Assembly: GCA_000004985.1 (NCBI GenBank)
Contig: GG738873.1
Origin: Naegleria gruberi
Taxonomy: Eukaryota
DNA length: 64,000 bases
Strand: one strand, 5' to 3'
The position numbers and the translations under genes are program-made. Below, in pieces: positions 1 through 64,000 of the stretch. The notes under the pieces were generated by a model. The model saw nothing but the letters and a program-made list of their open reading frames with translations, did no database searches and was not told where the DNA came from. The stretch's first letter is position 1. Each line of letters opens with the position of its first letter.

Positions 1-285
1 TTTTCAAACAAATGACAGGTGATTGTTTTTAAACAGAAATGTTTACTCTTCGTCTTTCTTGAATATTTAATTGTTAAATATTTAAATAGTATTTAACTGT
101 AATAATACTGTAAAGAAGGCTTTCAAAAAAATGAGAAAAATTTAGAAAAAAAGAAGGGAAACGTTTTCTCTCCAACACTCTTGCTCAAGTATTAAGGTGT
201 AACGGAATTTATTTTCTCTGTAGTAGTAATAATTAATACTAGTAATTGTATATTAAAAAAGTTGATGATTAAGGAGGAATAGAAA

Positions 286-3871: not shown

Positions 3872-6256
3872 CTAGGCTAAAATTAATGTCGATAAGAATA
3901 AGATTTTTAGAGTTTTAAATTCACATATTTTAGATTGTCCAGAATTCTGGCTTGATTGTGTGTTAACAGAGTAAACTTCATAATCATCCACAGTAAAAGT
4001 TATAGAGCCAGCTAAATACAATGCACACGACTCACCAAGGACACATTCATAATCTGATCCAAAAACTGTAACACTATCTTTTTCAGTTTGGCCACGAATC
4101 ATCAAATCGGGAATTTTACCAAATTGTGGACCATTATTCTTATAATTTTCAATGGCAGACTTTGGGTTCAAAACTCTATGCAGTGACCACTTTCTTCTCC
4201 ACTTGCAGATTTAATACTGAATAACATTGCCTTTTCGTCGAAAACACGAACTCTGGTAACAGTGCTCTTCCAAGATACCTCCGAATAGCCACCAAAGATA
4301 TCTTTTCCAGACTTGGTAATCCTCAATGTTAGCCCTTTATTATCACATGCTCTGTGAAATTGTTCTAAATTGGAGCCATTCAATGAGGCTAACTATGGTA
4401 ATTTTTGCTCAATCATATAATCTCTTCCCAATGTTCAAAATCAAATCATCACTGAATTCAATAATTTATTTTCCCGGGGATATTTACAAAACAAATGTTG
4501 GTTCAAGTTTTAGATCAATGTGGTAATCTTCCAGGCAGAAAGATTTCATACGTTCTCTCAATTCCTCATCTCTTAGATTCAATAAGGTTGACAAATGGTT
4601 GTGTAATAATTTTGAAACAAGATCTTTGCTATCCTTTTCCACATAATCACCAATAATATTCAATGATTTTCTCAACATTTCTCTATTAATTGAACTAGAC
4701 AAGAGCATCTCAAATGCTTCTTCGAAATTAACATACTTCTGTGAGTCTTCCTTTTGTTGCAATTCATAGAGCCATTCATCGTCATTAACTTTGTCCTCTC
4801 CTATAAGTTCAATGATTTTCTGGGTGGTCTTTCCATCCAAATCAAAAGCAATATCTTCTCCCAAAACTGAATTCCTCTTTGAAAAGTGAACAGGTCTTGA
4901 AATAAAATCAGAAAGGAGAGCATTTGTCATGGATTCATCAGTTAGAATTTTTGTTCTAAGAGTCGCATTCAAAGAAGCCAGTTTCAATGCATTGCTAGAG
5001 CATTCACCAATCAAGGAAAAATACTTGACCTGACTAGTTCCAATATTTCCTACAAGACATTCAGAACGAGATACTCCAATTCCATAATCTAGTTCTGGTA
5101 ACTTGACTTGATCTTTAAGTTGTGAATTGACTGCTTCCATTTGTTTCTTCAGATGAACAGCACACATCAATGCTCCCTTCTCAAAACTTCTTCCATTCTC
5201 AAAACTGACCATAATTATCTTTGGAGTCACTATGGTAGCTCTTCCCCTAAATTGTTTGCTAACACTCTGAACTTTCTGATATAGCATTGTGAAAACACCC
5301 AACAAATCAGTTGAAATTGGATAGCTTCTTCCATCGAAATTTCTAAATTGAATTACCAACACTGTTGCCACATATGATGAAAGCCCCAATTCCAAGCTAA
5401 CTTTCTGTTGATGATTGCTTGTCATTGATGTGGTAGCCTGTGAAACCTTGCTCTTATGAGAATGGCCCCCAACAGAACTCATTTCAACAAAACTTGATAC
5501 TAAACTCGTTTTGGAAACTTGTTTTCTTTGAGTAACGAGTTTTCTCATCTCTATGAGTTGTTTCTCACGATGTTCCTCGGCCAGTCTATCTTGTTCTTTT
5601 TCCAAATCGTCGTCTTCCATTGAAAAGAGGCTTTCTGGAATAAAGGGTCTTATTTCCTTCATGACTTTGTTAAATTCCCAAAAGAGGCTAAAGAAGGGAA
5701 TGAATTCGGCTATCAAAGTTGGCATTTTCTCAATATCTTCAAATTTCATCTTCTTCATTTTGAAGAGTTGCAAAGTAATTCTTTGAAGTGGTCGTTTCAA
5801 AGTAAAATAATGTATAATTGGAATGGTAAGTAATGTCAAGATACTCATCACTACAAAGGTCAACCATGAAATGATGGAAATTATAGAAATATCAATTGAA
5901 ACTCCTTGATTAATAACTACAACCGAAGAGATCCATATTATCAAGCAAGTAATAAATAAGAGAGATAACGAGAGAGCAATCACAAGCATCCTAATTGACA
6001 TGAAACAGTCCACCACAGTTGACCTTCCGGTACTCAACGGATTATCAAACACATCACCTCGTTTTTCATCTACTTGAATGGAATCATTTGTGCTGGCACT
6101 GGGCACTATCATAATCTTGCTATTGTTTGTTTTTACATTGATTTTATCACTTCTCATTGATGCTTGCCTTGTCGAATTCAAAACAGCAATTTCTTGAGCA
6201 GAAGTTGACCCAACACTTTCAATTTCCAATCTTGATGGGAAAATACGGGTTGGCAT
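3872..6256 (-). CDS. Membrane protein with a degenerate class-III nucleotidyl-cyclase homology domain fused to a C-terminal TLDc domain; 2 exons; an apparent frameshift sits in the TLDc part (possible pseudogene or assembly indel)
   Basis: Exon 6256..4493 (ORF 4484..6256) is joined to 4392..3872 by a 100-nt intron at 4492..4393. The donor is TTT|GTTTTG (canonical GT, weak extended consensus) and the acceptor is CCATAG. The TLDc alignment runs continuously across this junction: ..DYHIDLKLEPTF|LASLNGSNLEQFHRACDNKGLTLRITKSGKDIFGGYSEVSW. Two or more TM helices occur at residues of about 90-150. Cyclase-like motifs are VLVIQFRNFDG, GRATIVTPKIIMVSFENG and DYGIGVSRSECLVGNIGTSQVKYFSLIGECSSNALKLASL, but the metal-binding Asp residues are not conserved. 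ORFs 4168..4383 and 3872..4171 overlap by 4 nt in different frames inside the TLDc domain (..LFSIKSASGEESGHC / ..NPKSAIENYKNNGPQFG). No intron of 34 nt or longer fits, so this is a frameshift. Confidence 0.55.
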
Positions 6257-17535: not shown

Positions 17536-19157
17536 NNNNNNNNNNNNNNNNNNNNNNNNNNNNNNNNNNNNNNNNNNNNNNNNNNNNNNNNNNNNNNNNN
17601 NNNNNNNNNNNNNNNNNNNNNNNNNNNNNNNNNNNNNNNNNNNNNNNNNNNNNNNNNNNNNNNNNNNNNNNNNNNNNNNNNNNNNNNNNNNNNNNNNNNN
17701 NNNNNNNNNNNNNNNNNNNNNNNNNNNNNNNNNNNNNNNNNNNNNNNNNNNNNNNNNNNNNNNNNNNNNNNNNNNNNNNNNNNNNNNNNNNNNNNNNNNN
17801 NNNNNNNNNNNNNNNNNNNNNNNNNNNNNNNNNNNNNNNNNNNNNNNNNNNNNNNNNNNNNNNNNNNNNNNNNNNNNNNNNNNNNNNNNNNNNNNNNNNN
17901 NNNNNNNNNNNNNNNNNNNNNNNNNNNNNNNNNNNNNNNNNNNNNNNNNNNNNNNNNNNNNNNNNNNNNNNNNNNNNNNNNNNNNNNNNNNNNNNNNNNN
18001 NNNNNNNNNNNNNNNNNNNNNNNNNNNNNNNNNNNNNNNNNNNNNNNNNNNNNNNNNNNNNNNNNNNNNNNNNNNNNNNNNNNNNNNNNNNNNNNNNNNN
18101 NNNNNNNNNNNNNNNNNNNNNNNNNNNNNNNNNNNNNNNNNNNNNNNNNNNNNNNNNNNNNNNNNNNNNNNNNNNNNNNNNNNNNNNNNNNNNNNNNNNN
18201 NNNNNNNNNNNNNNNNNNNNNNNNNNNNNNNNNNNNNNNNNNNNNNNNNNNNNNNNNNNNNNNNNNNNNNNNNNNNNNNNNNNNNNNNNNNNNNNNNNNN
18301 NNNNNNNNNNNNNNNNNNNNNNNNNNNNNNNNNNNNNNNNNNNNNNNNNNNNNNNNNNNNNNNNNNNNNNNNNNNNNNNNNNNNNNNNNNNNNNNNNNNN
18401 NNNNNNNNNNNNNNNNNNNNNNNNNNNNNNNNNNNNNNNNNNNNNNNNNNNNNNNNNNNNNNNNNNNNNNNNNNNNNNNNNNNNNNNNNNNNNNNNNNNN
18501 NNNNNNNNNNNNNNNNNNNNNNNNNNNNNNNNNNNNNNNNNNNNNNNNNNNNNNNNNNNNNNNNNNNNNNNNNNNNNNNNNNNNNNNNNNNNNNNNNNNN
18601 NNNNNNNNNNNNNNNNNNNNNNNNNNNNNNNNNNNNNNNNNNNNNNNNNNNNNNNNNNNNNNNNNNNNNNNNNNNNNNNNNNNNNNNNNNNNNNNNNNNN
18701 NNNNNNNNNNNNNNNNNNNNNNNNNNNNNNNNNNNNNNNNNNNNNNNNNNNNNNNNNNNNNNNNNNNNNNNNNNNNNNNNNNNNNNNNNNNNNNNNNNNN
18801 NNNNNNNNNNNNNNNNNNNNNNNNNNNNNNNNNNNNNNNNNNNNNNNNNNNNNNNNNNNNNNNNNNNNNNNNNNNNNNNNNNNNNNNNNNNNNNNNNNNN
18901 NNNNNNNNNNNNNNNNNNNNNNNNNNNNNNNNNNNNNNNNNNNNNNNNNNNNNNNNNNNNNNNNNNNNNNNNNNNNNNNNNNNNNNNNNNNNNNNNNNNN
19001 NNNNNNNNNNNNNNNNNNNNNNNNNNNNNNNNNNNNNNNNNNNNNNNNNNNNNNNNNNNNNNNNNNNNNNNNNNNNNNNNNNNNNNNNNNNNNNNNNNNN
19101 NNNNNNNNNNNNNNNNNNNNNNNNNNNNNNNNNNNNNNNNNNNNNNNNNNNNNNNNN
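17536..19157. other. Assembly gap (1,622 N) inside the giant gene
   Basis: Uninterrupted run of n. Flanking sequence on both sides is coding in the minus orientation. Confidence 0.95.
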
Positions 19158-22100
19158 TTTCTTTTGGTAAATCCAATGTTTGATGCAGTCTTCTTGATTA
19201 CATTCAACTTGATGAATGTATTCTTAACTGTATTCACAAGGTAAATAATATCGTCAACTTTAACAATACTGATCTTGTCAGAGTATTCGGAAAATTGAGA
19301 AATACTTGATGGGTAATTAGCAATTTGTTCAAACTTCATAGAATCTGTCCATAGATTGGTTTTGGAATCTTGTTGAGTAACATTTGCAATAAAGATCTTT
19401 GTTCCTTGATCAGTAATGGTGGCAATCAATATCTTGATACCTGAGGCTTCAGTAGCAGAGATTAGCGCTCTAGCGTTAGAAACTGCGTCCTTGTTTGGGA
19501 ATTCAACAGTTGATATGATTCTAACTCTAGCATCGAAGAAAATAAGGGTTGGTGTTAAGGTATATCTATTACTAGCTGTAAAGACAATTGAAGTAGTATT
19601 ATCAACAACAATATTCAAATCCTTAACTGTTTCTCTGTTGAATGTATGATTGTACAATCGTTTGTTGTCGTATAGGGTTGTCTTGATAATACTGTTTCCT
19701 GAGATATCTCTAGCAGATAAGGATTCATAGAATTCAATAGTAGTAACTGTAAAATTATTTGTGTTAATGGTAATACCATACAAAACAGAGTCCATAATAA
19801 AGATCTTATCAATTTGGTCTGCTTCAGTAAGGCTTGAAAGGTATTTCCAGTTTGAAATTGAGTCAACAATATCCATTTGTGTATAAATTAAAACTGAGAA
19901 ATCATCATAATTAATTACTGTAAAGTAATAAGTCCCATCAAATATTGTTGGAGTAGTAGATTTGATAGGAGATGAAGGTAAACCCAACTCGGAAAGTTTT
20001 TGGGAAGATATGACCACCAAATTACTGCATGCTACATCCATTACAATAATGTCAACCGATTTGGAAGTAACTGAAACAGAATTGACTGTAATATTGGAGC
20101 AAGACTTACTGCTGTCAAAATATTCACAATTCTTGCCGGTAAATTCTTGCTCACAAGAGCAAACATTAGGGAAAACACATACACCATGAGTGCTACAAGC
20201 ATCAGCCAAAGTCTTGTTAAAGCAAACAGGAATGGAACAATTTTCTCCTCTATAATCAGGCCTGCAAACACAAACATCTTGTGAGATACAAGTACCGTGA
20301 GCCGAGCAATTATTTCTATTGGCACAATCAAAGTATGAAGTAATGTTACATTCAATACCCTCGAATCCATAGTCACAAGTGCAATTGTTTGGAGCAGCAC
20401 AATATCCTCTATTACAAGCGTCCTTACCATACTTTTCGTAACAAATAACATACTGACATTCTTCTCCAGTATAACCTTCAGAGCATTTGCAATTATTGTT
20501 AGAAATACAAGCACCCCTGCCACTGCAAACTTGGCTATTATTGACAGATAAACCATAACAAGTATACCAATTACATGTATCAAAATCGTTACAAGTACCC
20601 TTCTTGGCACATACGTTTGGATCAGTGGCTGGTAGTCCATAACAAACCGGTGTAGAACAATTGGTTCCGATATAACCATTGCATTTACAATTGTCTGGAT
20701 AGGTACAATTTCCGTGTCCATTACAAACATTGGTTTCATTAGCTGGAATGTTATAACAAATAGTAAATTCACATTTTGGACCTGTAAAACCTTCACTGCA
20801 TTGACAGGTATCTGGCAAAGAACAAATACCACGACCAGTACAAACATTTTGAGAGTCTGAAGCATTAAAACCATAACAAATTGGAATGGAACAATCTTTT
20901 CCAACATAAGTTGAAATGCATAAGCATAAATCTGTATCGTTACAAATACCATGCCCATAACAAACAGTTGAATCATTTGAAAGAATGTCGAAACAATTTG
21001 AAACTTCACAAGCTGAACCAATGTATCCATTTGAACAAGTGCAATGGTTTGCATAATCACAGGAACCGCGATTGGAACAATCAGTAATATTGTTGACAAT
21101 ACAAGTCCAGTTTTGACAATTATTTCCAAAGTAGTTTGTTTCACATTCACAAGTATTATTGCCAATACATTTTCCTCTGGAGCTACAAACATCTGTTTCA
21201 TTACTTTCCACACCAAAGCAATGGTAGTATTCACAAACATCTGGTGCAATACATTTTCCAATTCTTCCACAAACAGTACTTGTATTAGATACCACACCAT
21301 AACAATTGGTAAGGGAACAGTCTGGAGCAAAGTACCCAACCTCGCATGTACAATTATTAGGTGAACCACAAATACCTCTTCCACTGCAAACTTCTGTTTG
21401 GGTGGAATCAAAGCCAAAGCAAATAGGAAGGGAGCAGCTTTCTCCATCATAAATAGGATCGCAAACACAAGTATCCTTATCCACACATAAACCATGTCCA
21501 GAACAAACATTTGAATCATTTGAAAGAATGTTGAAACAAATGGAAACTTCACAAGCATTACCGACATGTCCTTCTTCACAAACACAGTGATTTGCATAAT
21601 CACAGGAACCGCGATTGGAACAATCAGTAATATTGTTGACAATACAAGTCCAGTTTTGACAATTATTTCCAAAGTAGTTTGTTTCACATTCACAAGTATT
21701 ATTGCCAATACATTTTCCTCTGGAGCTACAAACATCTGTTTCATTACTTTCCACACCAAAGCAATGGTAGTATTCACAAACATCTGGTGCAATACATTCA
21801 CCAATTCTTCCACAAACATCTGGGTGAGTCAAACGTAATCCACCACAAGTTATAATTGAACAATCGACACCATCGGTATTGTTGTTACAAATGCAGGTAT
21901 CAGGAGCAACACAAACACCCTTAGAGCTGCAAACTCGTATGTCTGAAGAATTGAGACCAAAACACATAGGAATAGAACACACACTTCCAGTGAATGTGGA
22001 ATTGCAGCTACAGGTGTCATGAGAAATACATTCACCATTGTTGCTACAAACACCAGATTGGTTGGATAACAAACCATAACAAATTGGAACTTCGCAGTTA

Positions 22101-37100: not shown

Positions 37101-37981
37101 AAAATAAACTGATCTGTTGACAAATAAGATGTATCTGACAATTGTAACCAAAAACTCAATGTAAAGTTATTTTTCAGTTCAATAAATGGTGTTCTATCTA
37201 GAAGGATGTAGCTTTGGTCGGTTAAACCAAATTTGAAAGATCTTCCTTTTTTTACCACGTTAGACTCCAAATCAATACCATTTGATGCTAGTTGGAGTGG
37301 TTTGGTTTTTTCTCTAACGAACTGAACTCCTCCAATATTGGTAAGGTTGTCAAAATTAAAATACATTTCATAATCAGCATCTACATCATAGCTGATATCG
37401 TCTTGTAATTCTGTACATTGAGGATTGCTAAGTATTTCACTTGTTGTTGAACAAATAGGTGATTGGTAAGAGTATTGAGATGTCCCTAAAGTTGCGATTA
37501 CGCTTGAACTAGAGGAAGACAAAGGGCAATTGCCTAGTAAATCTTTTTGGCAAGTACTTGCAGTCGATTGCAGAAGAGACTCACAAAACACACCTGAAAA
37601 GCCAGGATTGCACTGACAAATTTCAGGACCAATACAAACACCATTGCCACTGCAAACACCGGGAGCACCTTCAGACATTCCACCACATACAATAGTTTCG
37701 CAATTTGTATTGGCGAAGCCTGGGGAACAACTACATAAATCTTCACCAATACAAACACCGTTACCGGAGCAGGCATTAACAAGATCCGATGAATGAACAC
37801 CAAAACAACTGAAGGAGCTAACTTGGCATGTACAATAAATCAAGAAAAGAAAGACTATAAATACAAATCTTATTGCACAAATATTTCTAGTAGATAAAAA
37901 GCGGAATAGATGTGGTGTTGTTGGGCAAAGATCATCACCCTTGGCACCACAACAAAAACCTGTATTCCTCATATCATTCAT
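19158..37981 (-). CDS. Giant extracellular adhesion-type protein. It has a signal peptide and dozens of EGF-like modules alternating with ConA/LamG-like modules of about 200 aa. About 6,270 codons are resolved in one uninterrupted exon upstream of the gap, and the gene continues through the gap to 16788.
   Basis: ORF track 17519..38071 (minus) is open for 20 kb. The probable start ATG is at 37981 (MNDMRNTGFCCGAKGDDLCP..). The signal-anchor/signal peptide is ICAIRFVFIVFLFLIYCTCQVSS. Dozens of C-x-S/N-G-x-G-x-C...C-x-C-x-x-G(F/Y)-x-G-x-x-C modules are present, for example CSGNGVCIGPEICQCNPGFSGVFCE and CSGHGQCDGLNNCTCDFGYSGSNC. Interspersed non-Cys modules of about 180-220 aa carry F..SFWL.. and ..Y(I/V)(D/N)G.. 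motifs typical of ConA-like/LamG/pentraxin folds. NxS/T sequons are very dense. No stop occurs for 18.8 kb, so no intron is needed. Confidence 0.75.
21050..21820. repeat. Recent tandem duplication (unit about 543 bp, about 226 bp near-identical) inside the giant CDS, duplicating a pair of EGF-like modules
   Basis: ORF-track plus-strand antisense ORFs 21044..21364 and 21566..21838 contain an identical 77-aa run (IITGTAIGTISNIVDNTSPVLTIISKVVCFTFTSIIANTF..NIWCNTF). On the coding strand this is the repeated segment CGRIG(E/K)CIAPDVCEYYHCFGVESNETDVCSSRGKCIGNNTCECETNYFGNNCQNWTCIVNNITDCSNRGSCDYANHC. Confidence 0.8.
27560..28040. repeat. Coding minisatellite (21-63-nt units) inside the giant CDS encoding an array of N-glycosylation sequons
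   Basis: DNA units such as gtaaagttactaattgtaatgttatcact repeat many times. The translation (minus strand) is ..NFTYTNLTISNFTNSNFTSDNITIGNYTYTNSTSSNFTNTNLTSDNITIGNFTNSNFTSDNITIGNFTYTNLTIRNLTSDNITISNFTISNFTSNNITIGNFTYNNYT.. Confidence 0.8.
28131..32100. repeat. Four tandem repeat units of about 1.26-1.31 kb inside the giant CDS, each encoding one LamG-like + 3xEGF-like module. Cores of about 210 bp are near-identical between units.
   Basis: Core sequence caaaaatcaggcttggtacaattaccatttccactgcaaacaagtggatcttctgatttaacaccaaaacaaattggtaaagaacaatttgatccataatatcc.. recurs at about 28131, 29394, 30704 and 31981. The protein-level repeat is CNGIYLTSP(K/Q)ACNSNGKCYGN..CREGYYGSNCSLPICFGVKSEDPLVC(S/N)GNGNC. 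More diverged units flank the array at about 26.3 kb and 33.1 kb. Confidence 0.8.
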
Positions 37982-38141
37982 TTTTTGTTGTGAAGGAAGC
38001 AAAGTTTGCAAACAACAGCTTGATTTACGCCGTAAATAAACTGTAGAGATACAGTAAACCTGTACAGCCACAGTAAAAGGGGTAACACCAGAGTGATTTA
38101 TTACATACAGAAAGAAAATACATCAAGCGTGTTCCGGTAGA
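37982..38141. promoter_or_regulatory. Short (160 bp) divergent intergenic region between the ATG of the giant gene (minus) and the ATG of paralog A (plus); putative bidirectional promoter with a TACAG motif cluster
   Basis: Start codons lie at 37981 (minus) and 38142 (plus). The element ctgtagagatacagtaaacctgtacagccacagtaaaagg at 38041-38080 contains three TACAG copies. Confidence 0.45.
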
Positions 38142-40976
38142 ATGGCAAGAAACAATTTTTTTATTGCAATACTGGCTGTTTTTATTTTAGGATTAATTAC
38201 AGGTAGGTAGTAAAATCAACAAGAAGATGTAACACGGACTAGTTAATCTTTGTACCAATATTGTTAATGCTCAGGATGAAAATTCAGCAACAACAGAACA
38301 AGTGCAAAACCTTAAAGCTCAAAAACTTCTTCAAAATGATTTTTTAGAAGTGTTGAGCGTATTGCAAAAGCAGCAATCTGACCTCTCAGACGCAAACACC
38401 AAGAAGAAGCTGTTGGATACAAAGGAAGCTATTGAAATTTCTGGTCCATACCTGGCTGCTCTCAACATTACCTCGGATCAATTTACAACCATGCTAGCCA
38501 ATAAGCAAACTCAATTGCAAAGTGTAATGAGCTTGGAATTGGAGTTGAAGAATTTGATATCATTGACCCAAAACTCTGCTAATATTGTTGGTGATAACAT
38601 CAAAAATTTTGTAGCTGTAAGTATTAATTGTTTGTCTTTTATATTTAACATTAGCAGTTGTTCACAAAAAAAGCCTACACTGTGGATCAGTATCAAAATA
38701 CAACAAAAGAGGTACATAGATATGATCTTAATATTACCCAAGTTGATGCAATTGTTCCAAACTATCTAACTGCTTACCCAGTGAGAAGAATTAGAAATCG
38801 TATTTCAGTCGGTTTTCAACACGTGTTAGTACTAAACCAAAATGGGAAGTTGTACTCTACAGGTATTCCTTCTTATGGAAATCTGGGAAGAACCAACACT
38901 GATTCAAGAATGTTATATAACTTGCCTGTTCAAGGATTGGATGGTCTTGATATCCTTCAATTTGATGCCAATTATTACTCAAACCTTGTTTTAACCAATG
39001 ATGGAGTTTATTCATTTGGGTTGAATGACAAATCACAGATGGGAACTGGAGATAGAAATGACAGATATGTCGCTGGAAAGGTTTACGGATTTGGTGGACA
39101 AAATATTGTTCAAATAGCCATGGGACGCCAAGCATCCTATGCCATTGATTCCAACGGCAAGTTATGGGCCTGGGGTGACAATACCATGTACGGTCAATTG
39201 GGAGACAGAACCTTTTCTGAAAAGAATCGTCCTTTCCCAGTTTACAGCTATGGCGCTATTAACAGCACGGCTGTGGTTAGGGTTTGTGGGGGTGGTTACT
39301 TTGCTCTTGCCTTACTTGCAAATGGAAATATGGTTTCGTTTGGTGATAATTCATATGGACAGCTAGGTGTTAATAACCCATTAATTTCAAAATCGGGAGA
39401 ACCATTGTTGGTGGTTAAACCTTCAGAACTAGCCTCAAAGACAATTGTTGACATTCAATGTGGTTATGATTATGCAATGGCCCTTACATCATCAGGTGAT
39501 GTATATACTTGGGGAAACAACAATTACGGCCAATTGGGTGATGGAAGTTCTGGAGGTAAATCCCCAATTCCACAAAAGATCACAATTTCTGGCTGTACAG
39601 TATCCCAAATCCACACAAAATACCAAAGCTCATTTGCTTTGTGTACAAGCAACGAACTGTATTCATGGGGAATGAACTCTGTTGGCCAACTTGGAAGAAC
39701 TAGTAACCAAATACCAACAACTACCCCAACCAGAGTTGATCCTTCGTCGTTCTTGTCCAGCACTGATGACTATTTGGGCTTCCCCAAAATTATTGAGATA
39801 TCCTCCAATTTTAACAACATGTTCCTTACCACATCTGATTTGAGTATTTATGGAACCGGATCATGTATTGATGGTTCTAAACAGCAATTTGCCTTCTTCT
39901 ACACTACAAGATCCAGTGATTATGGGGCTTGCACTAGTTCCAATATTTTCTCCTTGAATTCAATGTCAAAGATGCCAACTTTCTCTTCTATTAGTTATCC
40001 AGTATCCCTTAGAAAGGCCCAATATTTTGAGATTGGAACAAGAGCCTACCTCCTTCAAACAGATACAGTAGTTCCAACCAGACCTAATAATGGCTTTAAT
40101 ATGTATTATAAGCAATTTGCTGATCCAGAAAACTCTTGGTCTATTATCGAACGAAATGAAGCCACCAACGCAGGTTTTCCTGTATCAATTTACAACAGCC
40201 ACTTCCTTAAAGCTGATGAATATGTCTACTTCTTTGGTGGTTTCATCAATGACGAAGTTTCAAATAAGATTTACAGGGCTCCAATTTATGATGTTGAATC
40301 TGGATGGGAACTCTGTAATTTTACTCTACCATATTCTGTTGCAAGTGGTATGACAACAGTTATTAATGGATACATTTATATTTTTGGTGGTATAACCAAG
40401 ATCTATTCCTACAATGGCGGTGAACTTCCAACTCTTTCTCCAACAGTTACAAACCAAATAATTAGAGCCCCAATTAATAATTTGACAAATTGGATGGTTG
40501 TTTCAGGAAAGGTATTGCCATCCGCTATACACAGTGCTTCCATTACAATTATTGACAAGTATGTCTATTTATTTGGAGGTTCCCCATCTTATTACTCTTC
40601 CAGCCAAGAAGTTTACAGAGCTTTGATTACTGATCCTTCATCTTGGGAAATGACTTTTGGTTTACTTCCATTCTTTGTAACAAATGGTGCTTTTATCTCA
40701 ACTGGTAATGAATTGTTAATGGTTGGAGGCACAGCTTCTGGCAGTTTAGTGAATGGAGGATTTATGGCGATTTCAAAGAAGTCACAATTTGACCCAGTCG
40801 GCTCATGGATGGCTAGTGATGTATTCTTACCTTCAAATGCTGCCCAATCTCTCATTACAGTGATTAGAAACGACACAGTATTGCTCTACGGAACTGAATT
40901 GCACCGTAGTACTTCTTACACTCCCCACTCACCAAAAATTGGAAGAGTTTTGAAGCTTGCACTCGATCTGTACTAA
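38142..40976 (+). CDS. Paralog A: secreted protein with coiled-coil + RCC1-like beta-propeller + Kelch-like beta-propeller; 3 exons, 918 aa
   Basis: Exon 1 is 38142..38202 and encodes MARNNFFIAILAVFILGLITG. Intron 1 is 38203..38242 (40 nt, GTAGGT..CTAG, phase 1). Exon 2 is 38243..38616. Intron 2 is 38617..38654 (38 nt, GTAAGT..TTAG). Exon 3 is 38655..40976. The frames of ORFs 38302..38769 and 38658..40976 join exactly. The predicted signal peptide cleaves near ..IVNA|QDEN. About seven RCC1-like blades carry G.N..GQLG motifs, for example YGNLGRT, GLNDKSQMG, GDNTMYGQLGD, GDNSYGQLG, GNNNYGQLGDG and GMNSVGQLG. The Kelch-like repeats are YVYFFGG, YIYIFGG and YVYLFGG. Confidence 0.8.
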
Positions 40977-41451: not shown

Positions 41452-44363
41452 TTAATTTTGGGAAATTACAATAGTTGATATATGAGAGTGTAATCCTTCC
41501 ACTGTTGTGATAATGGATGAAGTTGAATTTGCAGCTGCTGTAATTACTGATACAATGTAACCAACAAGCGGTAACTTTAAATCAATAACTATCCATTTTG
41601 AAGGATCATTTTTAAAACAAGCTAATACATTAGTTGAATTTCCTTCATAATCCTTTCCTCCCCAGATGAAATAATTATCGTTATCACTTGAAATTTTAGC
41701 TTCCACTCTGCTGTATGGAAGAACTTCATATAAATTCTTCCATTTCCAGTCTGCGAGTGATGCTACATGTATATCACCCACAGATTGAACTCTGTTCACT
41801 CTTCCTCCAAAGAAGTACATAGTTTTATCAATTATCTCAATAAATACATTGTAAACCGATCTTGGTAAAACTTGGTTCACAACTTCCCACAACAGCACAT
41901 TGCTAATTTTTGCTCTCATAATCTTTGCTGTTGGTACTCCTTTTGCAATCATTCCACCAAATATATAGACATATTCCTCAATCATTTTAAGTACACCATT
42001 AGCAACTGGATATGGTAATGTTTCATTATAGATTGTAACTTGGTTAAAAGATTGCTTTGAAATAATTCTATTTGAAAAGGTGCCATTCACAATACCCCCA
42101 AAATAAAAAGTCAATCCATCAAATGCAAGTTGGTGAGTGCTAAAGAATGACTTGGCAAAAAACTTTGGGTCAATTGAAAAATTGAAAGTGGGGCTAGAAA
42201 AATAAAAGGAACTAGCTAAAATGACAGAGCTAGAGTTGGAGCTTGACAACGACTTAGTGTAAATTGGTATTTTTGTGAAACTAACTAAATCAAAACCAGT
42301 ATTAGGAATTGGATGATCCATAACTATCACTCTCTTCTCTTCATCTTCATATATTGGAAGAGTTCTTTCTTCTACTGGAAAATAATTAAAAGATCCCATC
42401 ATCATTACACCTGCCATGTAATTTTGCTCATTAATGAACCCACTTGGAAAAGGTGTCACTTTAAAATAACCACCAACCATAATGCCAATTTGCCCATTAT
42501 AGGAATAAACTACTAGAGAAGAATCAGTAGATATTTGAACATCCAATAAATCTTCATATGCTGTTTCGTGAATTTGTACAAATCTTGGTTGCCTAATATC
42601 TCCACAACAAGGAACTTCGTACGATACTGACTTGATGCAAGCTGCTGGTTTTTCACAAGTGCTAATTGTATAACCAACAAATACAGGGTGAGCAGAAACA
42701 GAACAAGTGCCTGAAGACAACAATTGGCTTATTTCTGCTGCTCTCTCTGGAAGAATTCCACTCTCATATAGCCTATTTTCACCAGTAAATACGATATCCA
42801 CATTATGGGCAGGAGCCCACTCTTCACAAGCATGTTCAATGCAAATGGCTGTCAGTACTCCAGTTGCACACTGACACTTTTTCTTAGTGTTAACTCCCCA
42901 AGAAACCACTCTATTGTCAGTGGTAATGGCGTTCACAAGACCACCTCTGTGTCCAATTTTTTCAAATTTAACATCTCCAATGAACTGCCTACTAACTGGA
43001 ACGGGGGAGGGTGATGATGTTTCATCATCAGTTCCAACACAAGGATCATACCTTCCCCAAGCATAAATATTTCCATTTGACAACAAAGCTACAGTTGTTT
43101 CAGTTCCACATTGAATATCTTTTACAAAAACTCCTTCAATCCAGTCTGGAAAGCTGCTCCTAGAGATTGGTGTTGGTGATACACTGGATGCAGATCCCTA
43201 AAAGAAAACAGTAATTAATAATATGTCAAATATTGTACTCACCCAAGTATAAATGTTACCATCATAACCAATTCCAAAGGCATCTTTATCTTGTAAGCAC
43301 ACTTTTTCCATTCTAATATTTGAATTCATTCTTGTTGGCTTTTCAACATTGATATTGTCATTGTTTCCAATTATTGGGCCACCTATTCCCCATATAAAAA
43401 CGTACCCAGAATTATCTATAGCTACTGAATTAATTGCTGCATTCATGTATGCAAAAGTGTTATCATGATAAAGTATTGTAAGTGGTAAGGAAATAAATTT
43501 GTTTGTTCCTGAAGGAGGAGGTATGCCCAATCTTCCATCTGAGTTTTCTCCCTTTCAAAAATTTAGATAGATATAAAATATTGACAACCTACCCAACCAA
43601 TGATTCGTTTGTTGGTCAACACCATTGCATGAACTTTTCCACATACTAGTTGTTTGATGAATTCTCCATCTACAAGTCCTAAATTAACAGCAGCTGGTTC
43701 TATAGTTGGTGGTGAGCCCGGTCTTCCAAGAGGAACAGTCAGACTATATTCATATCCAAATGACATAAGCTGCCCACTTGAAAGATCAATGTACATTCCA
43801 TACTGATCTCCAAGGCATATGAATGTTCTTTCAGAAATAAATTTTCCACGTACTTCTCTTGAAATGCTGACTTTGTTCTTTCGTATGGATGTAGAGTTCA
43901 TTTTCTCCCTTGCAAAATAAGGGGATTTAAAGGCTTCTTGCAATGTTGTTAGGTTTTTTACAAATCGTTGTTCTATACTGTTCCACTTTTCTTGAGCAAT
44001 TTTGTTCATGCACTTTGTTTCCTTCAGCGAATGGAAAAAGGATTGCCTCCTTTGCAAAGTTTGCTTAAATGCATACATGTTTCTATTATTTGTTTCTCCC
44101 AAACTAATTATTTTCATTTCATGATCAACTTGTTTCAATTGAGCTTCTACTTCATTAATATATTCAAACATTGTTCCATTTAATTGATTAACTTTCTCTC
44201 TGTGGGCTTTTGCATTCATTAGGGCTTCAAGATAGATCTCCGAAGACATTTTGGTGTTTGTTGTTAGTGTTGCATTCATTACATTTGTTGAGTTGAGAGC
44301 CACAACTTGCAAACAACATCCCACAGTCAGGAAAAACAAAAGAACAACACTCCAACCACCCAT
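41452..44363 (-). CDS. Paralog F: secreted coiled-coil + degenerate RCC1-like + Kelch-like protein; 3 exons, 941 aa
   Basis: Exons on the minus strand are 44363..43593, 43551..43243 and 43197..41452. The introns are 43592..43552 (41 nt, GTAGGT..GAAAG) and 43242..43198 (45 nt, GTGAGT..TTTTAG), both phase 0. Frames join exactly across ORFs 43563..44363, 43198..43530 and 41452..43086. The signal peptide MGGWSVVLLFFLTVGCCLQVVALNST lies in the first exon with no intron after it. The coiled-coil region is ..NQLNGTMFEYINEVEAQLKQV... RCC1-like motifs are degenerate: GENSDGRLG, GYVFIWGIGG, DGNIYTWG, NGNIYAWG and DNRVVSWG. The Kelch-like repeats are LTFYFGG, YVYIFGG, TMYFFGG and YFIWGG. Confidence 0.75.
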
Positions 44364-44691
44364 GTGTTTTCAATGCGTTTTTTAATTATTAATATTGGAG
44401 AGATATGCAACCTCCTGACTAAACACTTGAACATTTCACCTCTTTAAGGGCGGCTTGACTTTTACTGTAACCAAAAGTTGCTGTTGTATTACCTCTTCTG
44501 CTGTCTGCAATTGGCACTGATAATACGGTATTTTAAATGAATAATGGGTGCCCTAGAGTAAGGTAATACACAAATTTTAAAGGAGCCAAAGTTCTCCAAC
44601 ATGCAAAAAGTTCAATGGTTTGGACAGAGAGCAACTTGTCTAACAAATAAACATGTACAGAATATTTGATGGGTTTTGTCTATTAAGCTTA

Positions 44692-45086
44692 CAGCACGTT
44701 TACTTCAAATTTGACTCGTTTTATGAAAGAAAATAAATTATTTAGAAAAAATTTTGATGTTCTTCTGCTGTCAAATCCAAAATAAGCATTTCAATAGAAC
44801 AACACCTAACCACTCGTTCTTACTCATTTCTACATATTTTTGAGAATGCTGCCACCCCAAGGGGTATGTCAATGCGAGGATTCATAATTTGAAGTCAGAT
44901 TTCAAAACTACCTTAATTCCATCGAGAATTTAGCATTTTGTTGAATAAAATATTATCGTTACAGATTCTTTTCAAATGGAGTTGAGTTTACTTGCCAAAT
45001 CAAAATTGAAAGATGAAATACTGTTAATTTTAAAAAAAACAATTTTAATTTCCCCAAATCTTGTCAAACTTGAAGTAAACGTGCTG
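44692..45086. mobile_element. MITE-like non-autonomous element (395 bp) with 25-bp terminal inverted repeats and TA target-site duplication (Tc1/mariner-Stowaway-like)
   Basis: The left end is TA|CAGCACGTTTACTTCAAATTTGAC. The right end is GTCAAACTTGAAGTAAACGTGCTG|TA. The TIRs match 24 of 25 positions. The interior is AT-rich and non-coding, and the element sits in an intergenic region. Confidence 0.55.
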
Positions 45087-45610
45087 TAATAAAATTACAA
45101 TTTATTCATTATTGTAAATTATTGGAGCTAAAAATATATTCTCGCGCCAACCAAAAACCGCTGAAGGTATAACATAAGGACCGTTAAATATTCAACAAAA
45201 AAAAACAATCGCTCAACATGAGTTCCTCACCACCCTGCTAAACAACCACCTTGATACCAGGAGGAGAGTTCTCCCTTTGCTTCCTTCCACAAAGTTGTTG
45301 TTCATTCTCATCAGCCATAACTAGATTCAACCATAACATCAACAGTCTTACCTGCCATTTACTTGAAGTTGTAGCTACATTAAAGTGAAGGTTCATATCC
45401 AAGAACAAGTACTTCTTTTTAATAAACAAAATATATAATATATTATATTATATTTGTCAATCCTTCACCTCCTTTGGCTTGGGTTCTCCTGGAAAATGAA
45501 CCAGTTTCTCATCTATTTGAATGAAATTATACTTTCTAATAACAATGACTCTTATTTTCCTCTTTGCGCTTTTTGACAGATTTCTCTCACCAAAATAAAA
45601 GTTTAAAAAA

Positions 45611-55600: not shown

Positions 55601-55701
55601 ACTATGAAAAATTTATAGTAAGCGGAAATATACAACCTACAAAAAGCTACACACACACATTGCAATTTAGACCGCAAACCAGCGTTGAGGGTCTTCATCA
55701 T
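52653..55701 (-). CDS. Paralog B: secreted coiled-coil + RCC1-like + Kelch-like protein with an extra C-terminal EGF-like module and a truncated fibrinogen-like start; 3 exons, 989 aa
   Basis: Exons on the minus strand are 55701..55641 (MMKTLNAGLRSKLQCVCVAF), 55601..55222 and 55181..52653. Intron 1 is 55640..55602 (39 nt, GTAGGT..CATAG, phase 1). Intron 2 is 55221..55182 (40 nt, GTAAGT..TGTAAAG, phase 0); an alternative acceptor 27 nt downstream is also in frame. RCC1-like motifs are YNNGNLGRT, GLNDRSQLATG, GANDQGQIGD, GDNTYGQLGTG, GGNMYGQVGTG and GLNDIGQTG. Kelch-like repeats are YVYLFGG, YVYIFGG, YVYLFGG and LYIFGG. The C-terminal segment reads CSSAGICVGNDECQCSHGRFGDRCQ, then ..RVYQGLIGGGFYSILNNGTTIPIKVYCDMVF and stop. 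Confidence 0.75.
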
Positions 55702-56077
55702 TCGTTTTTTTTCTGAGTTGTGCACCGCAAATCACTGTAATTTCTGTGTTAAGGCTGTATTCACAGTAAGACTTTCAAAAACCTTAACTAGAAGTTATTT
55801 GGAGAATATTAGAAGAAGATTGTGCATAATGTATCTCCCAAATGTGCTCAACATTTTTTTTGGTTTCAAGCCAATCATAAGGGACGATTGAGCAGCAATA
55901 AACTTTTCATTTCTGCACGAAAATGAGATGATAATTGCCTACAGATTTATTAATCAAGATCTGTTTCTAAGTTGAATAGTCCACAATAAAATTCAAAACA
56001 TTTCAAAGAATAAAGTCCCTATCATTTTCATTATTCTCATTCAATACTCTATATTATCATTAAACTACTAGTACAAT

Positions 56078-58846: not shown

Positions 58847-59018
58847 TTTGTGATGTAGCGGGAGATGTGATGGGTGTTGTTTTTTTAAAAGTAGTTGCAG
58901 TTTGCTGCTGTAAGCACTCGCCCAAATCAGCTTAAATACAGCTGTGTACAGTACAGTCGTAATGAAATTACCACTACGAATTATTTTATCGCTTAATACA
59001 GCAGAAAAAAACATCACA
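58847..59018. promoter_or_regulatory. About 172-bp divergent intergenic region shared by paralogs C (minus) and D (plus); putative bidirectional promoter with a TACAG motif cluster
   Basis: Start codons lie at 58846 (minus) and about 59019 (plus). The sequence aaatacagctgtgtacagtacagtcg at about 58935-58960 is followed by ttaatacagcag. Confidence 0.45.
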
Positions 59019-61799: not shown

Positions 61800-61990
61800 T
61801 AAACAACCTTGTATAATAGTTATTTATTTTCTAAACATATCTCTTTAAAAAATTAGTTAACCTTATTCAACATTCAAACAAAAAAAATTGAGGTAAAAAA
61901 CCGTTTTAACATTTTGAACACTGTACCGTACAAAATTACAGCCATTGGCTGTAAAACACTGTATAAGGCTTTAAAAAAACATAAAAAAAA

Positions 61991-64000
61991 ATGATCTGGA
62001 GCAATACTCATGTAGAGGTTAGTCCAAAGAGCATTGGGCTTGCCGTGGTATTGTTATTTGTATCAATATCTTTTATTTGTAAGTTTCTCCAAGTAATAAT
62101 TGAAGCATATAGTCCATATAGGTGTTACTTCAAGTGCTCAAACAACCCAATACAATAGCACATTAACTTCAGAATTGTTTTACAAACTGTCATTTTACAG
62201 AGAAAGACGAGATAGTTTTTACCAGATTTACACAGACTACGTTCGTCAAAATCAAGAAATAGAAGAATCCAGAATTAAATTGAAAATTAATATTACAAAA
62301 GAGGCTGTAGAAGCTTCTTTTTATGAAATTACAAAATTAAGAATTCCAGTTGAACAATACTATCAAATGCTGAATAATAAGAATATACAATACGCAAACC
62401 TAGAAGAGGTTCAGAAGGAGCTTGATGACTTGATCACATTGACTGATCTTGGTTTCCTACACACCCAATCCACCCTAGATGATGTAGAAAAAGTAAGTCC
62501 TTCAGTTATTGGAAATGCTTATCGGTAATAGTCTGCTTCTAACATTTTGTACAATGAAGAAAAATGGCAATTGGCCAAAACAAGGAAGATAGTTTCCTCA
62601 ATGAACTTTACTACGACTGTTGGATTTCTTCCTAGTCATGCTAGATCTCACAAAATACCAAGAATTAGAAATAGAGTGTCTGCAGGAAAAAATCATGGTA
62701 TTCTTCTTCATTATAATGGACTACTCTATTCTTGGGGCGCTGACAATGGTGGTGCTTTAGGTAGACCAAATAGTGCAGGTGTCTCATCTTTTACTCTCTC
62801 TACCCCTGTTGAATTACCAAAGAATATTTCCATTCTTCAATTTGTTAGCTCAAACTATGCCAATTTGGTTCTTGCTGGAGATGCAGTTTATTCTTGGGGC
62901 AGAAATGAATACGGAGTTGTTGGTGATGGTACTTTTGGTGGAAATAAGCCACCATACAAGTTATTCTCTTGGGATTTGCAAGGTCCAAAAAGAATTGAGC
63001 AAATTGGAGCTGGAGGCTACACTTTTTATGTAATTGATGAAAATGGAAAAGCATATGCTTGGGGCAGAAACAATAGAGGCCAACTTGGAGACAAAACAAC
63101 CATTGACAAGCCAAGACCAGTTGACGTCTACATGAAAGGCATTTTACTCAATCAAACAGTCATTAGGGTTTGTGGTGGAGAAAGTCACACTTTGTTGTTG
63201 ACTAGTAATAATGAATTAGCGGCTATGGGTGACAACACTTATGGGCAATTAGGTGTGGGTACTTCTGGTGGATATAAAATGGAACCAACAAGAGTCAACA
63301 TCAAATTTAATGGTACTATTATGGACATACAGTGTGGTGAAAATTATAACCTTGTCTTAACTTCCAAAGGGTTGGTATACGGTTGGGGAAGGAACGATGT
63401 TGGTCAACTTGGAAGTGGAGACAAGCTAGACAAGTTGGAACCTACTCTTATTTCCTACCTTAAAAACAGCACAGTAGTCAAGATTTATGCCAGATTTTCG
63501 ACCTCATTTGCTCTTACCAATGAAAGTTTCTTATATGCTTGGGGTAATAACAATCAATACCAATTGGGTGCTAGTTCAGCCACCCTTTTTACAGTACCTC
63601 AAAATATAACACTCCCAGAATATGTGACTGTTGTTGACTTGGCTGTCATGCAAGGAACAACTGTATTTTTAGGAAATAATGGTACTTATTACGGTAGTGG
63701 TGGATCAACTAATGGAGAACTGCTCCGTATTTCATCACAACAACCAGCCTTCGACTGGATTTATAATGGATTGAGTTTTTATGGGTTTGCAATGGAAAGA
63801 AGAAGATATCCATATTTTGAAGTGGATGATATTGCCTACCAGTTTGTAGGGGACAATTTTGCAATCTTTCCAGATAATGGTTTTTACCTTTATAAGAGAA
63901 ATATTGCAGATCCAACAATGGGTTCGATTGTAGAATACAGAAACAATACTGGCAAATTCTTCCAAGGAACAATTTACAATTCTCATATGCTTAGACTAGG
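61991..64000 (+). CDS. Paralog E (3' end truncated by the window edge): secreted coiled-coil + RCC1-like + Kelch-like protein; at least 3 exons, more than 645 aa in the window
   Basis: Exon 1 is 61991..62078 and encodes MIWSNTHVEVSPKSIGLAVVLLFVSISFI. Intron 1 is 62079..62112 (34 nt, GTAAGT..CATATAG, phase 1). Exon 2 is 62113..62492, in the ORF 62100..62528 frame, and ends ..DDVEK|GTAAGT. Intron 2 is 62493..62531 (39 nt, ..GTAATAG). Exon 3 runs from 62532 and stays open to the window end. This frame is absent from the ORF track, presumably because it has no stop. RCC1-like motifs are GADNGGALGRP, GRNEYGVVGDG, GRNNRGQLGD, GDNTYGQLGVG, GRNDVGQLGSG and GNNNQYQLG. Confidence 0.7.

What the first reader, a model, noticed from the sequence alone, without database searches (positions are those of the whole stretch)
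37982..38141. Two very short divergent (head-to-head) promoters and a recurrent TACAG motif upstream of every paralog
The giant gene and paralog A start only 160 bp apart on opposite strands (37981 and 38142). Paralogs C and D start about 172 bp apart (58846 and 59019). Clusters of TACAG(C/T) lie within about 40-110 bp upstream of the ATG of every one of the seven genes. The A/giant region has ctgtagagatacagtaaacctgtacagccacagtaaaagg (38041-38080). The C/D region has aaatacagctgtgtacagtacagtcg (58935-58960). B has gaatacagccttaacacagaaattacagtg (about 55745-55780, minus). E has attacagccattggctgtaaaac (61935-61960), part of a 7-bp palindrome. F has ggttacagtaaaagt (about 44455-44475, minus). 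I did not see this motif upstream of the unrelated genes in the window (DEP-RGS, TraB, LRR, beta-helix). It is a candidate shared cis-element co-regulating the giant adhesin and the secreted double-propeller family.
Basis: seen in the sequence. Interest (0 to 1): 0.55.

Follow-up and report, generated by a model that had tools for sequence, protein, structure and literature searches.

The report
Conserved TTACAG promoter motif in Naegleria
A short DNA word, TTACAG(T/C)A, sits just upstream of every gene in a cluster of secreted-protein genes in the amoeba Naegleria, is kept at the same places in at least three species including the brain-infecting N. fowleri, and is probably the promoter signal that switches these genes on together.

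Summary
The window is Naegleria DNA, gruberi-like. The giant EGF/laminin-G gene and paralog A start 160 bp apart, and C and D start 172 bp apart, head to head. All seven genes carry a sense TACAG(C/T) 22-106 nt upstream of the ATG.

TACAG density is 21.7/kb in the 782 bp of family promoters against about 2/kb elsewhere (Poisson 3e-12). The only three places in the 64 kb with at least 3 copies in 60 bp are the giant/A, C/D and E promoters. An unbiased k-mer scan ranks TACAG first: 16/19 family promoters against 1/25 others.

In 85 kb from N. fowleri and N. lovaniensis, 8 of 10 TTACAG(Y)A matches fall in the 714 bp between orthologous family genes. They lie back to back in intergenic regions of only 65-135 bp. 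The motif is conserved while the spacers diverge.

The refined consensus is wTTACAG(T/C)A. It is not a general Naegleria promoter word. The head-to-head promoters are imperfect palindromes, and in one paralog pair the arms are homogenised by gene conversion.

Best reading: a regulon-specific proximal promoter element, either a factor-binding site or an initiator-like start signal. Co-expression and start sites are untested. This is a new member of a known kind, of moderate interest.

The parts
37982..38141 (.). 160-bp bidirectional promoter between the giant EGF/Laminin_G_3 gene (minus strand, ATG at 37981) and RCC1-Kelch paralog A (plus strand, ATG at 38142)
   Evidence: The same head-to-head pairing is present in N. 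fowleri L003 and N. lovaniensis L004.
38041..38045 (-). TACAG copy in sense for the giant gene (ctcTACAGttt), 64 nt from its ATG. With 38050-38054 it forms a back-to-back pair separated by 4 nt.
38060..38064 (-). Second TACAG in sense for the giant gene, 83 nt from its ATG. It overlaps the palindromic 8-mer CTGTACAG.
38050..38056 (+). TACAGTA in sense for A, 92 nt from its ATG
38063..38075 (+). TACAGCCACAGTA: a TACAGC copy 79 nt from A's ATG, followed by the ACAGTA block that aligns with the invariant ACAGTA of N. fowleri and N. lovaniensis
38106..38110 (+). TACAGA 36 nt from A's ATG. This copy is doubtful because it aligns with CACACA in the other species.
44463..44470 (-). TTACAGTA in sense for paralog F (ATG at 44363), 106 nt upstream
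55734..55740 (-). TTACAGT in sense for paralog B (ATG at 55701), 38 nt upstream
55754..55759 (-). TACAGC in sense for B, 58 nt upstream
58847..59018 (.). 172-bp bidirectional promoter between paralogs C (minus strand, ATG at 58846) and D (plus strand, ATG at 59019)
   Evidence: The C/D pair is conserved, with 77-90 bp between start codons, in N. fowleri L001 and N. lovaniensis L002.
58906..58913 (-). TTACAGCA in sense for C, 66 nt upstream
58937..58957 (+). Distal cluster of three sense copies for D: TACAGC, then TACAGTACAGT
58997..59003 (+). TACAGCA 22 nt upstream of D's ATG. TTTACAGCA lies 23 nt upstream in N. fowleri and 32 nt upstream in N. lovaniensis.
   Evidence: MAFFT aligns the Nf/Nl copy to the distal window copy at 58937 rather than to this one.
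61920..61963 (.). E promoter cluster (ATG at 61991). One sense copy, TTACAGCC, at 61936-61943, and three antisense copies at 61920-25, 61948-53 and 61958-63. It includes the 9-nt-arm inverted repeat TTACAGCCA-T-TGGCTGTAA.
   Evidence: Partly conserved in environmental ortholog L007/L008.
96..112 (-). Two TTACAGT copies 11 nt apart that point out of the left end of the window. This may be another promoter of the same type for a gene outside the window.

Best explanation
wTTACAG(T/C)A is a functional proximal promoter element specific to this gene set. The set comprises the giant EGF/Laminin_G_3 protein and the signal-peptide + coiled-coil + RCC1-propeller + Kelch-propeller family.

Shown:
- Each gene carries at least one copy directed towards it. 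The proximal sense copy lies 16-106 nt from the ATG (median about 36) across the window, the N. fowleri/N. lovaniensis and the environmental genes, and 22-106 nt in the window.
- In head-to-head pairs, two copies lie back to back (CTGTAA ... TTACAG) at the centre of an intergenic region that can be as short as 65 bp.
- The element is kept across Naegleria species while the spacers change.

Inferred:
- A dedicated sequence-specific factor binds the element.
- In these compact, apparently TATA-less promoters the factor places the transcription machinery so that RNA starts at or just downstream of the element, giving short A-rich leaders.
- Because all members share the element, they are switched on together.

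The identity of the factor and the condition that triggers expression are unknown. A Myb-type protein is one lead.
For: Enrichment in the window:
- TACAG density is 21.7/kb in family promoters, about 2.1/kb in the rest of the window and 1.7/kb in non-family promoters.
- TACAG ranks first of 705 5-mers, in 16/19 family promoters against 1/25 others (p = 3.6e-8). TACAGT and TTACAG each score 12/19 against 0/25.

Specificity in other species:
- In 85.4 kb of N. fowleri and N. lovaniensis DNA, 8 of 10 TTACAGYA matches lie in the 714 bp of family intergenic DNA (binomial 1e-15).
- The AMP-binding, PAS-cyclase, TPR, ELP1 and other genes in the same loci lack it.

Conservation:
- The TACAG(T/C)A block is among the few invariant intergenic blocks in the orthologous alignments, while the spacers carry substitutions and indels.
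- The family subfamilies share only about 35% protein identity with D, so neutral retention of the motif since their duplication is unlikely.

Unrelated gene: the giant gene is not homologous to the family, yet it has its own copy in the window and in N. fowleri.

Environmental relatives: several, sharing 35-53% protein identity with D, carry TACAG, TACGG or TACCG copies 16-62 nt from their ATGs.

Architecture:
- The consensus is asymmetric: T-rich on the 5' side and A(G/A) on the 3' side.
- In every bidirectional promoter examined the copies diverge, each facing its own gene.

Independent assembly: a metagenome contig carries the giant/A region at 99.85% identity over 3,978 bp.
Against: - No transcript data exist here. 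Start sites, co-expression and factor binding are all untested.
- The background is only about 25 non-family genes, not a genome.
- Promoters are not independent samples. Paralog pairs arose by inverted duplication, and the arms of one pair are still homogenised by gene conversion. Orthologs share ancestry.
- In unidirectional promoters, orientation is not strict. E has one sense and three antisense copies, and its environmental ortholog has only antisense copies.
- Some genes have only degenerate versions. N. fowleri and N. lovaniensis C have TTTACCGT, and N. lovaniensis giant has TTACGG.
- Two environmental family promoters (L006 plus-strand gene, L007 C/D-type gene) have no sense TACAG copy within 150 nt.
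Confidence: 0.6

Rival explanations
1. The element is a specialised initiator. Transcription starts at the CA of TTACAG, much as the TCT initiator is used only by a subset of animal genes. In this reading no separate activator site is involved.
For: - The core CAGT matches the fly initiator TCAGTY at 4 of 6 positions (own knowledge).
- In the compact N. fowleri and N. lovaniensis promoters the sense copy lies 23-40 nt from the ATG, a plausible leader length. The exception is the N. fowleri giant-side copy at 83 nt.
- 65-75 bp intergenic regions leave no room for anything upstream.
- The copies are strand-specific and divergent in all bidirectional promoters.
- There is no upstream ATG between the proximal copy and the start codon in 17 of 19 genes, with 0 observed against 11.9 expected over 669 nt.
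Against: - ATG-free leaders of similar length are normal in non-family genes too, where the median nearest upstream ATG is at 74.5 nt.
- The antisense-only or antisense-rich arrangements in E-type promoters, and 3-5 copies per promoter in the window species, look more like binding-site clusters.
- No start site has been mapped.
Confidence: 0.25
2. The motif is a passive relic. It was copied along with the promoters when the genes duplicated, and is kept similar by gene conversion between palindrome arms, without any function.
For: - The head-to-head promoters are imperfect palindromes. N. fowleri giant/931 has a 20-nt perfect inverted repeat. N. fowleri 1172/1087 has 76-nt arms at 86%. N. lovaniensis 1189/1112 has 81-nt arms at 91%.
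- Arms are more alike within a species (66-71%) than between orthologs (50-58%), which indicates ongoing conversion.
Against: - Conversion explains similarity within a pair, not between the five or more promoter classes. Nor does it explain similarity between species, where spacers and leaders have diverged but the motif has not.
- Family subfamilies are only about 35% identical in protein to D, which is too old for a neutral 8-mer to survive.
- The non-homologous giant gene also has the motif.
Confidence: 0.1
3. The sites are scars or ends of Tc1/mariner-type transposons. TACAGTA and TACTGTA are the canonical excision footprints of such elements.
For: - The canonical Sleeping Beauty footprints are 5'-TACAGTA-3' and 5'-TACTGTA-3' (PMC6943129).
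- A 401-bp MITE-like element sits at 44689-45089. Its 34-nt terminal inverted repeats begin TTACAGCACG..., and it is flanked by TA if the repeat starts at CAG.
- TACAGTA and TACTGTA are the top-ranked 7-mers.
Against: - By my count from the listed contexts, only about a third of copies have the full TAC(A/T)GTA. The TACAGC(A) class does not fit a footprint.
- Scars would be scattered. They would not be restricted to one gene set, placed at fixed distances from start codons and conserved at orthologous positions in three species.
- The MITE end sequence was not found in any of the 8 loci held at the time.
Confidence: 0.04

Closest known systems
Giardia Myb2 site CWACAG of the encystation regulon
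   Same: [quoted passage not shown] It lies upstream of a co-induced set that includes the cyst-wall protein genes and is conserved between assemblages. Here the word is TACAG-based, lies at a median of about 36 nt from the ATG of secreted-protein genes, and is conserved between species.
   Different: The consensus differs: wTTACAG(T/C)A here against C(T/A)ACAG. C[AT]ACAG is not enriched here (4/26 against 4/25), nor is the classical Myb site YAACNG (5/26 against 5/25). No binding factor, no expression data and no link to encystment are known for the Naegleria genes.
Initiator elements of animal core promoters (fly TCAGTY), and subset-specific initiators such as the TCT motif
   Same: A short strand-specific word with a CA(G)T core lies close to the start of the gene. 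It is used by a defined subset of genes rather than all of them (own knowledge of these families).
   Different: The transcription start is not mapped here. Only 4 of 6 positions match TCAGTY. Several copies per promoter and antisense copies occur.
Compact bidirectional promoters of head-to-head gene pairs
   Same: Two genes on opposite strands share 65-172 bp between their start codons, and the arrangement is conserved across species.
   Different: Here each arm carries its own copy of the same directional element. The promoter is itself an inverted repeat that in paralog pairs extends into exon 1 and, in the one pair tested, is homogenised by gene conversion.
Tc1/mariner excision footprint TAC(A/T)GTA
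   Same: The 7-mer is identical to many of the copies.
   Different: The copies here are restricted by position and gene set and are conserved across species. The TACAGC variants do not fit a footprint.

Membership tests
Giardia-type Myb2 element (CWACAG) | Sequence C(T/A)ACAG | tested here: not met
   C[AT]ACAG is present in 4/26 family upstream regions against 4/25 non-family ones (p = 0.67). The enriched word is TTACAG, in 12/26 against 1/25. Only the giant-side copy at 38040-38045 reads CTACAG.
Giardia-type Myb2 element (CWACAG) | Narrow position a few tens of bp upstream of the start codon | tested here: met
   The proximal sense copy lies 16-106 nt from the ATG, with a median of about 36. 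In Giardia the average is 41.5 bp.
Giardia-type Myb2 element (CWACAG) | Bound by a Myb-domain protein, and target genes co-induced at one life-cycle stage | not testable with these tools
   No binding or expression data are available. Needs EMSA or DAP-seq, and stage-resolved RNA-seq.
Initiator (Inr) core promoter element | Overlaps the transcription start site | not testable with these tools
   The annotations of the fetched loci hold coding sequences only, and no transcript contigs were found.
Initiator (Inr) core promoter element | Fixed orientation towards the gene | tested here: inconclusive
   All bidirectional promoters have divergent copies, each facing its own gene. However, this can follow from inverted duplication. 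Unidirectional E-type promoters have mostly antisense copies.
Initiator (Inr) core promoter element | Match to a known Inr consensus (TCAGTY or YYANWYY) | tested here: inconclusive
   Comparing ACAGTA with TCAGTY gives 4 of 6 matching positions, using the consensus. The Inr consensus is from own knowledge.
Tc1/mariner excision footprint | Exact TAC(A/T)GTA at a former TA target site | tested here: inconclusive
   About a third of the copies fit (my count): most N. fowleri and N. lovaniensis A-type and F-type copies, and window A, F and one D copy. The TACAGC(A/C/T) and TACAGT(G/T/C) copies do not fit.
Tc1/mariner excision footprint | No relation to gene identity and no conservation beyond descent | tested here: not met
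   8 of 10 TTACAGYA matches in 85 kb lie in family promoters. Copies lie at orthologous positions in three species while the flanks diverge.
Bidirectional promoter | Head-to-head genes with start sites less than 1 kb apart sharing the intergenic region | tested here: met
   The distance between start codons is 160 bp and 172 bp in the window. It is 65-135 bp in five of the six N. fowleri and N. lovaniensis head-to-head regions, and 272 bp to the annotated start of the N. lovaniensis giant gene.
Bidirectional promoter | Co-expression of the two genes | not testable with these tools
   No expression data.

The most novel reading that the evidence does not exclude
TTACAG(Y)A is a Naegleria-specific, strand-specific start-site element. 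Together with about 25 nt of A-rich leader it makes a complete promoter, so that two copies back to back give a fully functional 65-bp bidirectional promoter. It marks a stage-specific regulon of surface, matrix or cyst-wall proteins (the giant EGF/laminin-G protein plus the secreted double propellers). One dedicated factor would control this regulon, as a parallel to the Giardia Myb2/CWACAG encystation regulon.
Probability: 0.2. Interest if true: 0.65.

Novelty: new member of a known kind. Interest (0 to 1): 0.42.

Why it matters
Very little seems to be known about how Naegleria genes are switched on. My searches of the held literature found no described promoter motif for the genus.

A short, conserved, gene-set-specific element would be useful in three ways:
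- It gives a concrete handle for finding the regulator and the condition that induces this cluster of secreted proteins, including in the pathogen N. fowleri.
- The naturally minimal 65-75 bp bidirectional promoters are obvious candidates for expression tools in an organism that, to my knowledge, is hard to transfect.
- The palindromic promoters homogenised by gene conversion are a small case study of how head-to-head paralog pairs keep matched control regions.

It remains an ordinary kind of thing, a promoter motif, so the interest is moderate.

Tried and rejected
- **Metagenome scan.** A scan of metagenome contigs with the D protein returned only RCC1 matches at 23-34% identity confined to the RCC1 region. 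I took these to be bacterial, and no further Naegleria loci were found.
- **Failed look-ups.** Look-ups of the N. gruberi partial protein P0004 and of a window protein were not on record. So the gene beyond the left end of the window could not be seen. Contig L009 ends at the same place as the window.
- **Literature.** Searches for a known Naegleria promoter motif, start-site data or any mention of this gene family's regulation found nothing.
- **Motif avoidance.** I tested whether the 8-mer is avoided outside promoters. It occurs 2 times against 4.9 expected, which is not significant.
- **Upstream ATGs.** I tested whether upstream ATGs mark the start site. Leaders free of ATG are just as common in non-family genes, so the test does not discriminate.
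- **Myb sites.** The classical Myb site YAACNG and the Giardia site CWACAG are not enriched.
- **Splice acceptor of a 5' UTR intron or trans-splicing.** Rejected. In 65-bp intergenic regions any upstream exon would lie inside the partner gene, the family's own introns end in other YAG contexts, and to my knowledge Naegleria has no spliced leader.
- **RNA-level element in the leader.** Unlikely, because conserved copies in E-type promoters are antisense.
- **Structured RNA gene.** There are no Rfam matches in the window.
- **Other resemblances.** I noted a palindromic bZIP-like reading (TTAC-A-GTAA) and an SBP-like GTAC core (CCGTACAA in E promoters). The consensus flanks are asymmetric, and I have no evidence for such factors, so I did not pursue either.

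Full report
**What the window is.** The sequence is about 35% G+C, has short GT...AG introns and carries a 1,622-base run of N at 17536-19157. The double-propeller ORFs find their best matches in Naegleria. These include a partial N. gruberi protein at 91% identity, and N. fowleri FDP41_000283 and N. lovaniensis C9374_002176 at 57%. Two metagenome contigs are 98.2% and 99.85% identical to parts of the window. The organism is therefore N. gruberi or a very close relative.

Pfam confirms the gene types. The giant minus-strand gene is built of teneurin-type EGF and Laminin_G_3 units. Paralogs A to F are RCC1-like propeller plus Kelch propeller proteins. Each has a short first exon encoding a signal peptide, followed by a coiled-coil exon.

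**Checking the observation.**
- TACAGY occurs 80 times in the window against 51 +/- 8 in dinucleotide shuffles.
- The excess is concentrated. The 782 bp directly upstream of the seven genes hold 17 TACAG/CTGTA. That is 21.7 per kb, against about 2.1 per kb in the rest of the window and 1.7 per kb upstream of twelve other genes (Poisson 3e-12).
- The only places in 64 kb with three or more copies in 60 bp are the giant/A, C/D and E promoters.
- A sense copy within 150 nt of the ATG is found in 7 of 7 family genes and 1 of 12 others. That single case lies inside the neighbouring gene's coding sequence (Fisher 1.6e-4).

One exception to 'never upstream of unrelated genes' needs stating. Two good copies at 96-112, and a CTACAG near 222, lie between the window edge and the EGF-TM ORF at 286. 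They are on the other strand, facing a gene that would lie outside the window.

**Related sequences.** I fetched the orthologous loci. Gene order is conserved. In N. lovaniensis the giant gene (8,772 residues) is head to head with an A-type gene, and this pair is followed by a second head-to-head pair. C and D are head to head in both N. fowleri and N. lovaniensis.

In five of the six head-to-head regions the start codons are only 65 to 135 bp apart. The N. lovaniensis giant/933 region is 272 bp, because the annotated giant start lies further away. These regions contain very little that is conserved apart from one word.
- Examples are cattcggttgtatttttttgctaCTGTAattgtaccctcaataTACAGtaaaaaaaacaaaaccggcaATG in N. 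fowleri, and the equivalent in N. lovaniensis.
- In each such region there is one copy per gene. The copies lie back to back, 23-40 nt from their respective ATGs (83 nt for the giant-side copy in N. fowleri).
- In 85.4 kb of these two genomes the 8-mer TTACAG(C/T)A occurs ten times. Eight of these fall in the 714 bp of family intergenic DNA, against 2 outside where about 5 are expected (binomial 1e-15).
- The other genes in the same loci have no copy in their proximal upstream regions. These are the AMP-binding enzyme, PAS-cyclase, TPR, ELP1 and several unknowns.

**Unbiased motif search.** I compared all 5- to 7-mers between 19 family and 25 non-family upstream regions.
- TACAG ranks first of 705 5-mers (16/19 against 1/25, p = 3.6e-8).
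- TACAGT and TTACAG each score 12/19 against 0/25, and TACAGTA scores 10/19 against 0/25.
- Aligning the proximal copies gives wTTACAG(T/C)A(g/a), with asymmetric flanks.
- Degenerate versions with C or G at the fifth core position (TTTACCGT, TTTACGGTAGG) occupy the same positions in some genes and in environmental relatives. TACNG is present in 25/26 family regions against 6/25 others.

**Conservation versus drift.** In alignments of the three giant/A regions, the three C/D regions and the two F-type regions, the TACAG(T/C)A blocks are among the few invariant intergenic columns. The spacers between them carry substitutions and indels. D shares only about 35% protein identity with the A-, F- and 1087-type subfamilies, so an unselected 8-mer would not be expected to survive. 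The giant gene is not homologous to the family, yet it has its own copy in the window and in N. fowleri. In N. lovaniensis it has a TTACGG variant.

**Architecture and history.** The head-to-head promoters are imperfect palindromes.
- N. fowleri giant/931 contains a perfect 20-nt inverted repeat, CACCAACCTACTACTGTAAA / TTTACAGTAGTAGGTTGGTG. It also has matching CACACAAAGAAAAA leaders on both sides.
- In the F-type pairs the inverted repeat runs through the leader, exon 1 and the start of intron 1, with 76-81-nt arms at 86-91% complementarity.
- The two arms are more alike within a species (66% and 71%) than either is to its ortholog (50-58%). This indicates gene conversion between arms.

This matters for interpretation. 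The back-to-back arrangement is partly a product of inverted duplication, and the two copies within a converting pair are not independent. It does not explain why the same word recurs in five or more promoter classes and across species.

**How it most likely works.** What is shown is a short, asymmetric, gene-set-specific word that is constrained in position and evolutionarily conserved, lying directly upstream of the start codons.

What I infer is a promoter element that recruits a dedicated factor and fixes initiation at or just downstream of itself. This would give short A-rich leaders and co-expression of the set.

Two sub-versions cannot be separated without transcript data.
- A factor-binding site is favoured by the 3-5 copies per promoter in the window species and by the antisense copies in E-type promoters.
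- An initiator-type start signal is favoured by the strand-specific divergent copies, by the 23-40 nt distance in promoters too short to hold anything else, and by the CAGT core. The absence of upstream ATGs between motif and start codon fits this reading (0 observed against 11.9 expected). It is not specific, however, because other genes have similar ATG-free leaders.

**Comparison with known systems.**
- The nearest functional analogue I could document is the Giardia Myb2 site CWACAG. [quoted passage not shown] The Naegleria word shares the ACAG core and the placement. It fails the sequence test for membership, because neither C[AT]ACAG nor the classical Myb site YAACNG is enriched.
- TACAGTA and TACTGTA are also the canonical excision footprints of Sleeping Beauty-type transposons (PMC6943129). 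A 401-bp MITE-like element with ends TTACAGCACG... sits at 44689-45089. Scars cannot explain the restriction to one gene set, the fixed position, the cross-species conservation or the TACAGC class.
- I found no description of this or any other Naegleria promoter motif in the held literature.

**Limits.**
- The non-family background is about 25 genes, not a genome.
- The look-up quota for further Naegleria DNA was exhausted, and the metagenome scan gave only RCC1 matches that I took to be bacterial.
- No expression, start-site or binding data were available.

**Verdict.** This is a new example of a familiar kind of thing, a gene-set-specific promoter motif in compact bidirectional promoters, in an organism where such elements appear to be undescribed. 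Interest is moderate.

Noticed in passing
window 44689-45089: A 401-bp MITE-like element lies in the F-TraB intergenic region. It has 34-nt terminal inverted repeats (88% complementary) that begin TTACAGCACGTTTAC, and it is flanked by TA if the repeat starts at CAG (Tc1/mariner style). Its terminal 8 nt equal the promoter motif. No exact copy of its 14-nt end sequence occurs in the 8 loci held at that point. The only other near-matches in the window are two with 3 mismatches.
   Followed up: partly
window 96-112 and about 222 (minus strand): Two TTACAGT copies 11 nt apart, plus a CTACAG, point out of the left end of the window. They lie upstream of, and antisense to, the EGF-TM ORF at 286-903. 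This may be another promoter of the same class for a gene beyond the window. Contig L009 ends at the same place, so the gene could not be seen.
   Followed up: partly
L003 17012-17248; L004 9832-10088: The 5' ends of the head-to-head paralogs (N. fowleri 1172/1087, N. lovaniensis 1189/1112) form inverted repeats with 76-81-nt arms at 86-91% complementarity, separated by 85-95 nt. The repeats cover exon 1, and the similarity extends into the leader and the start of intron 1. The arms are more alike within a species than between orthologs, which points to gene conversion between palindrome arms.
   Followed up: yes
L003 9931-9978: A perfect 20-nt inverted repeat with an 8-nt spacer sits in the N. 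fowleri giant/931 promoter. It is absent as such from N. lovaniensis. The leaders next to both ATGs are also near-identical (CACACAAAGAAAAA), although the two genes are unrelated.
   Followed up: partly
window 58962-59018; L001 10001-10012; L002 10001-10012: D has an in-frame upstream ATG at 58962 with no stop codon before 59019. If that ATG is used, the proximal TACAGCA at 58997 would be coding, and the distal cluster would lie 10-25 nt from the start. In N. fowleri and N. lovaniensis the D coding sequence itself begins ATGACTACAGCA, which is a second TACAGCA at +5. The true start codons are uncertain.
   Followed up: no
window 61924-61932; L007 about 3888-3897 and 1027-1035: TACCGTAC(AA) recurs next to the TACAG copies in E-type and one C/D-type promoter in the window and in an environmental relative. 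It may be a second conserved word.
   Followed up: no
window 17536-19157: An assembly gap of 1,622 N lies in the 3' part of the giant gene. The 6,850-codon ORF therefore reads through unknown sequence, and its true end is undefined. TACAGT hits about 170 nt apart at 19575-20090 hint at a repeated unit beside the gap.
   Followed up: no
L004 16310-16828: N. lovaniensis has a 172-residue called gene with an HTH_OrfB_IS605 domain (a TnpB/Fanzor-type transposon protein fragment) about 3 kb from the family cluster.
   Followed up: no
L006 (whole contig), L092, L009: Metagenome ERR1078381 contains an organism 98-99.85% identical to the window. It also holds a further head-to-head pair of family genes (L006) with no nucleotide match to the window. 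The intergenic region of that pair carries TTTACAGCA and three TACGG variants.
   Followed up: partly
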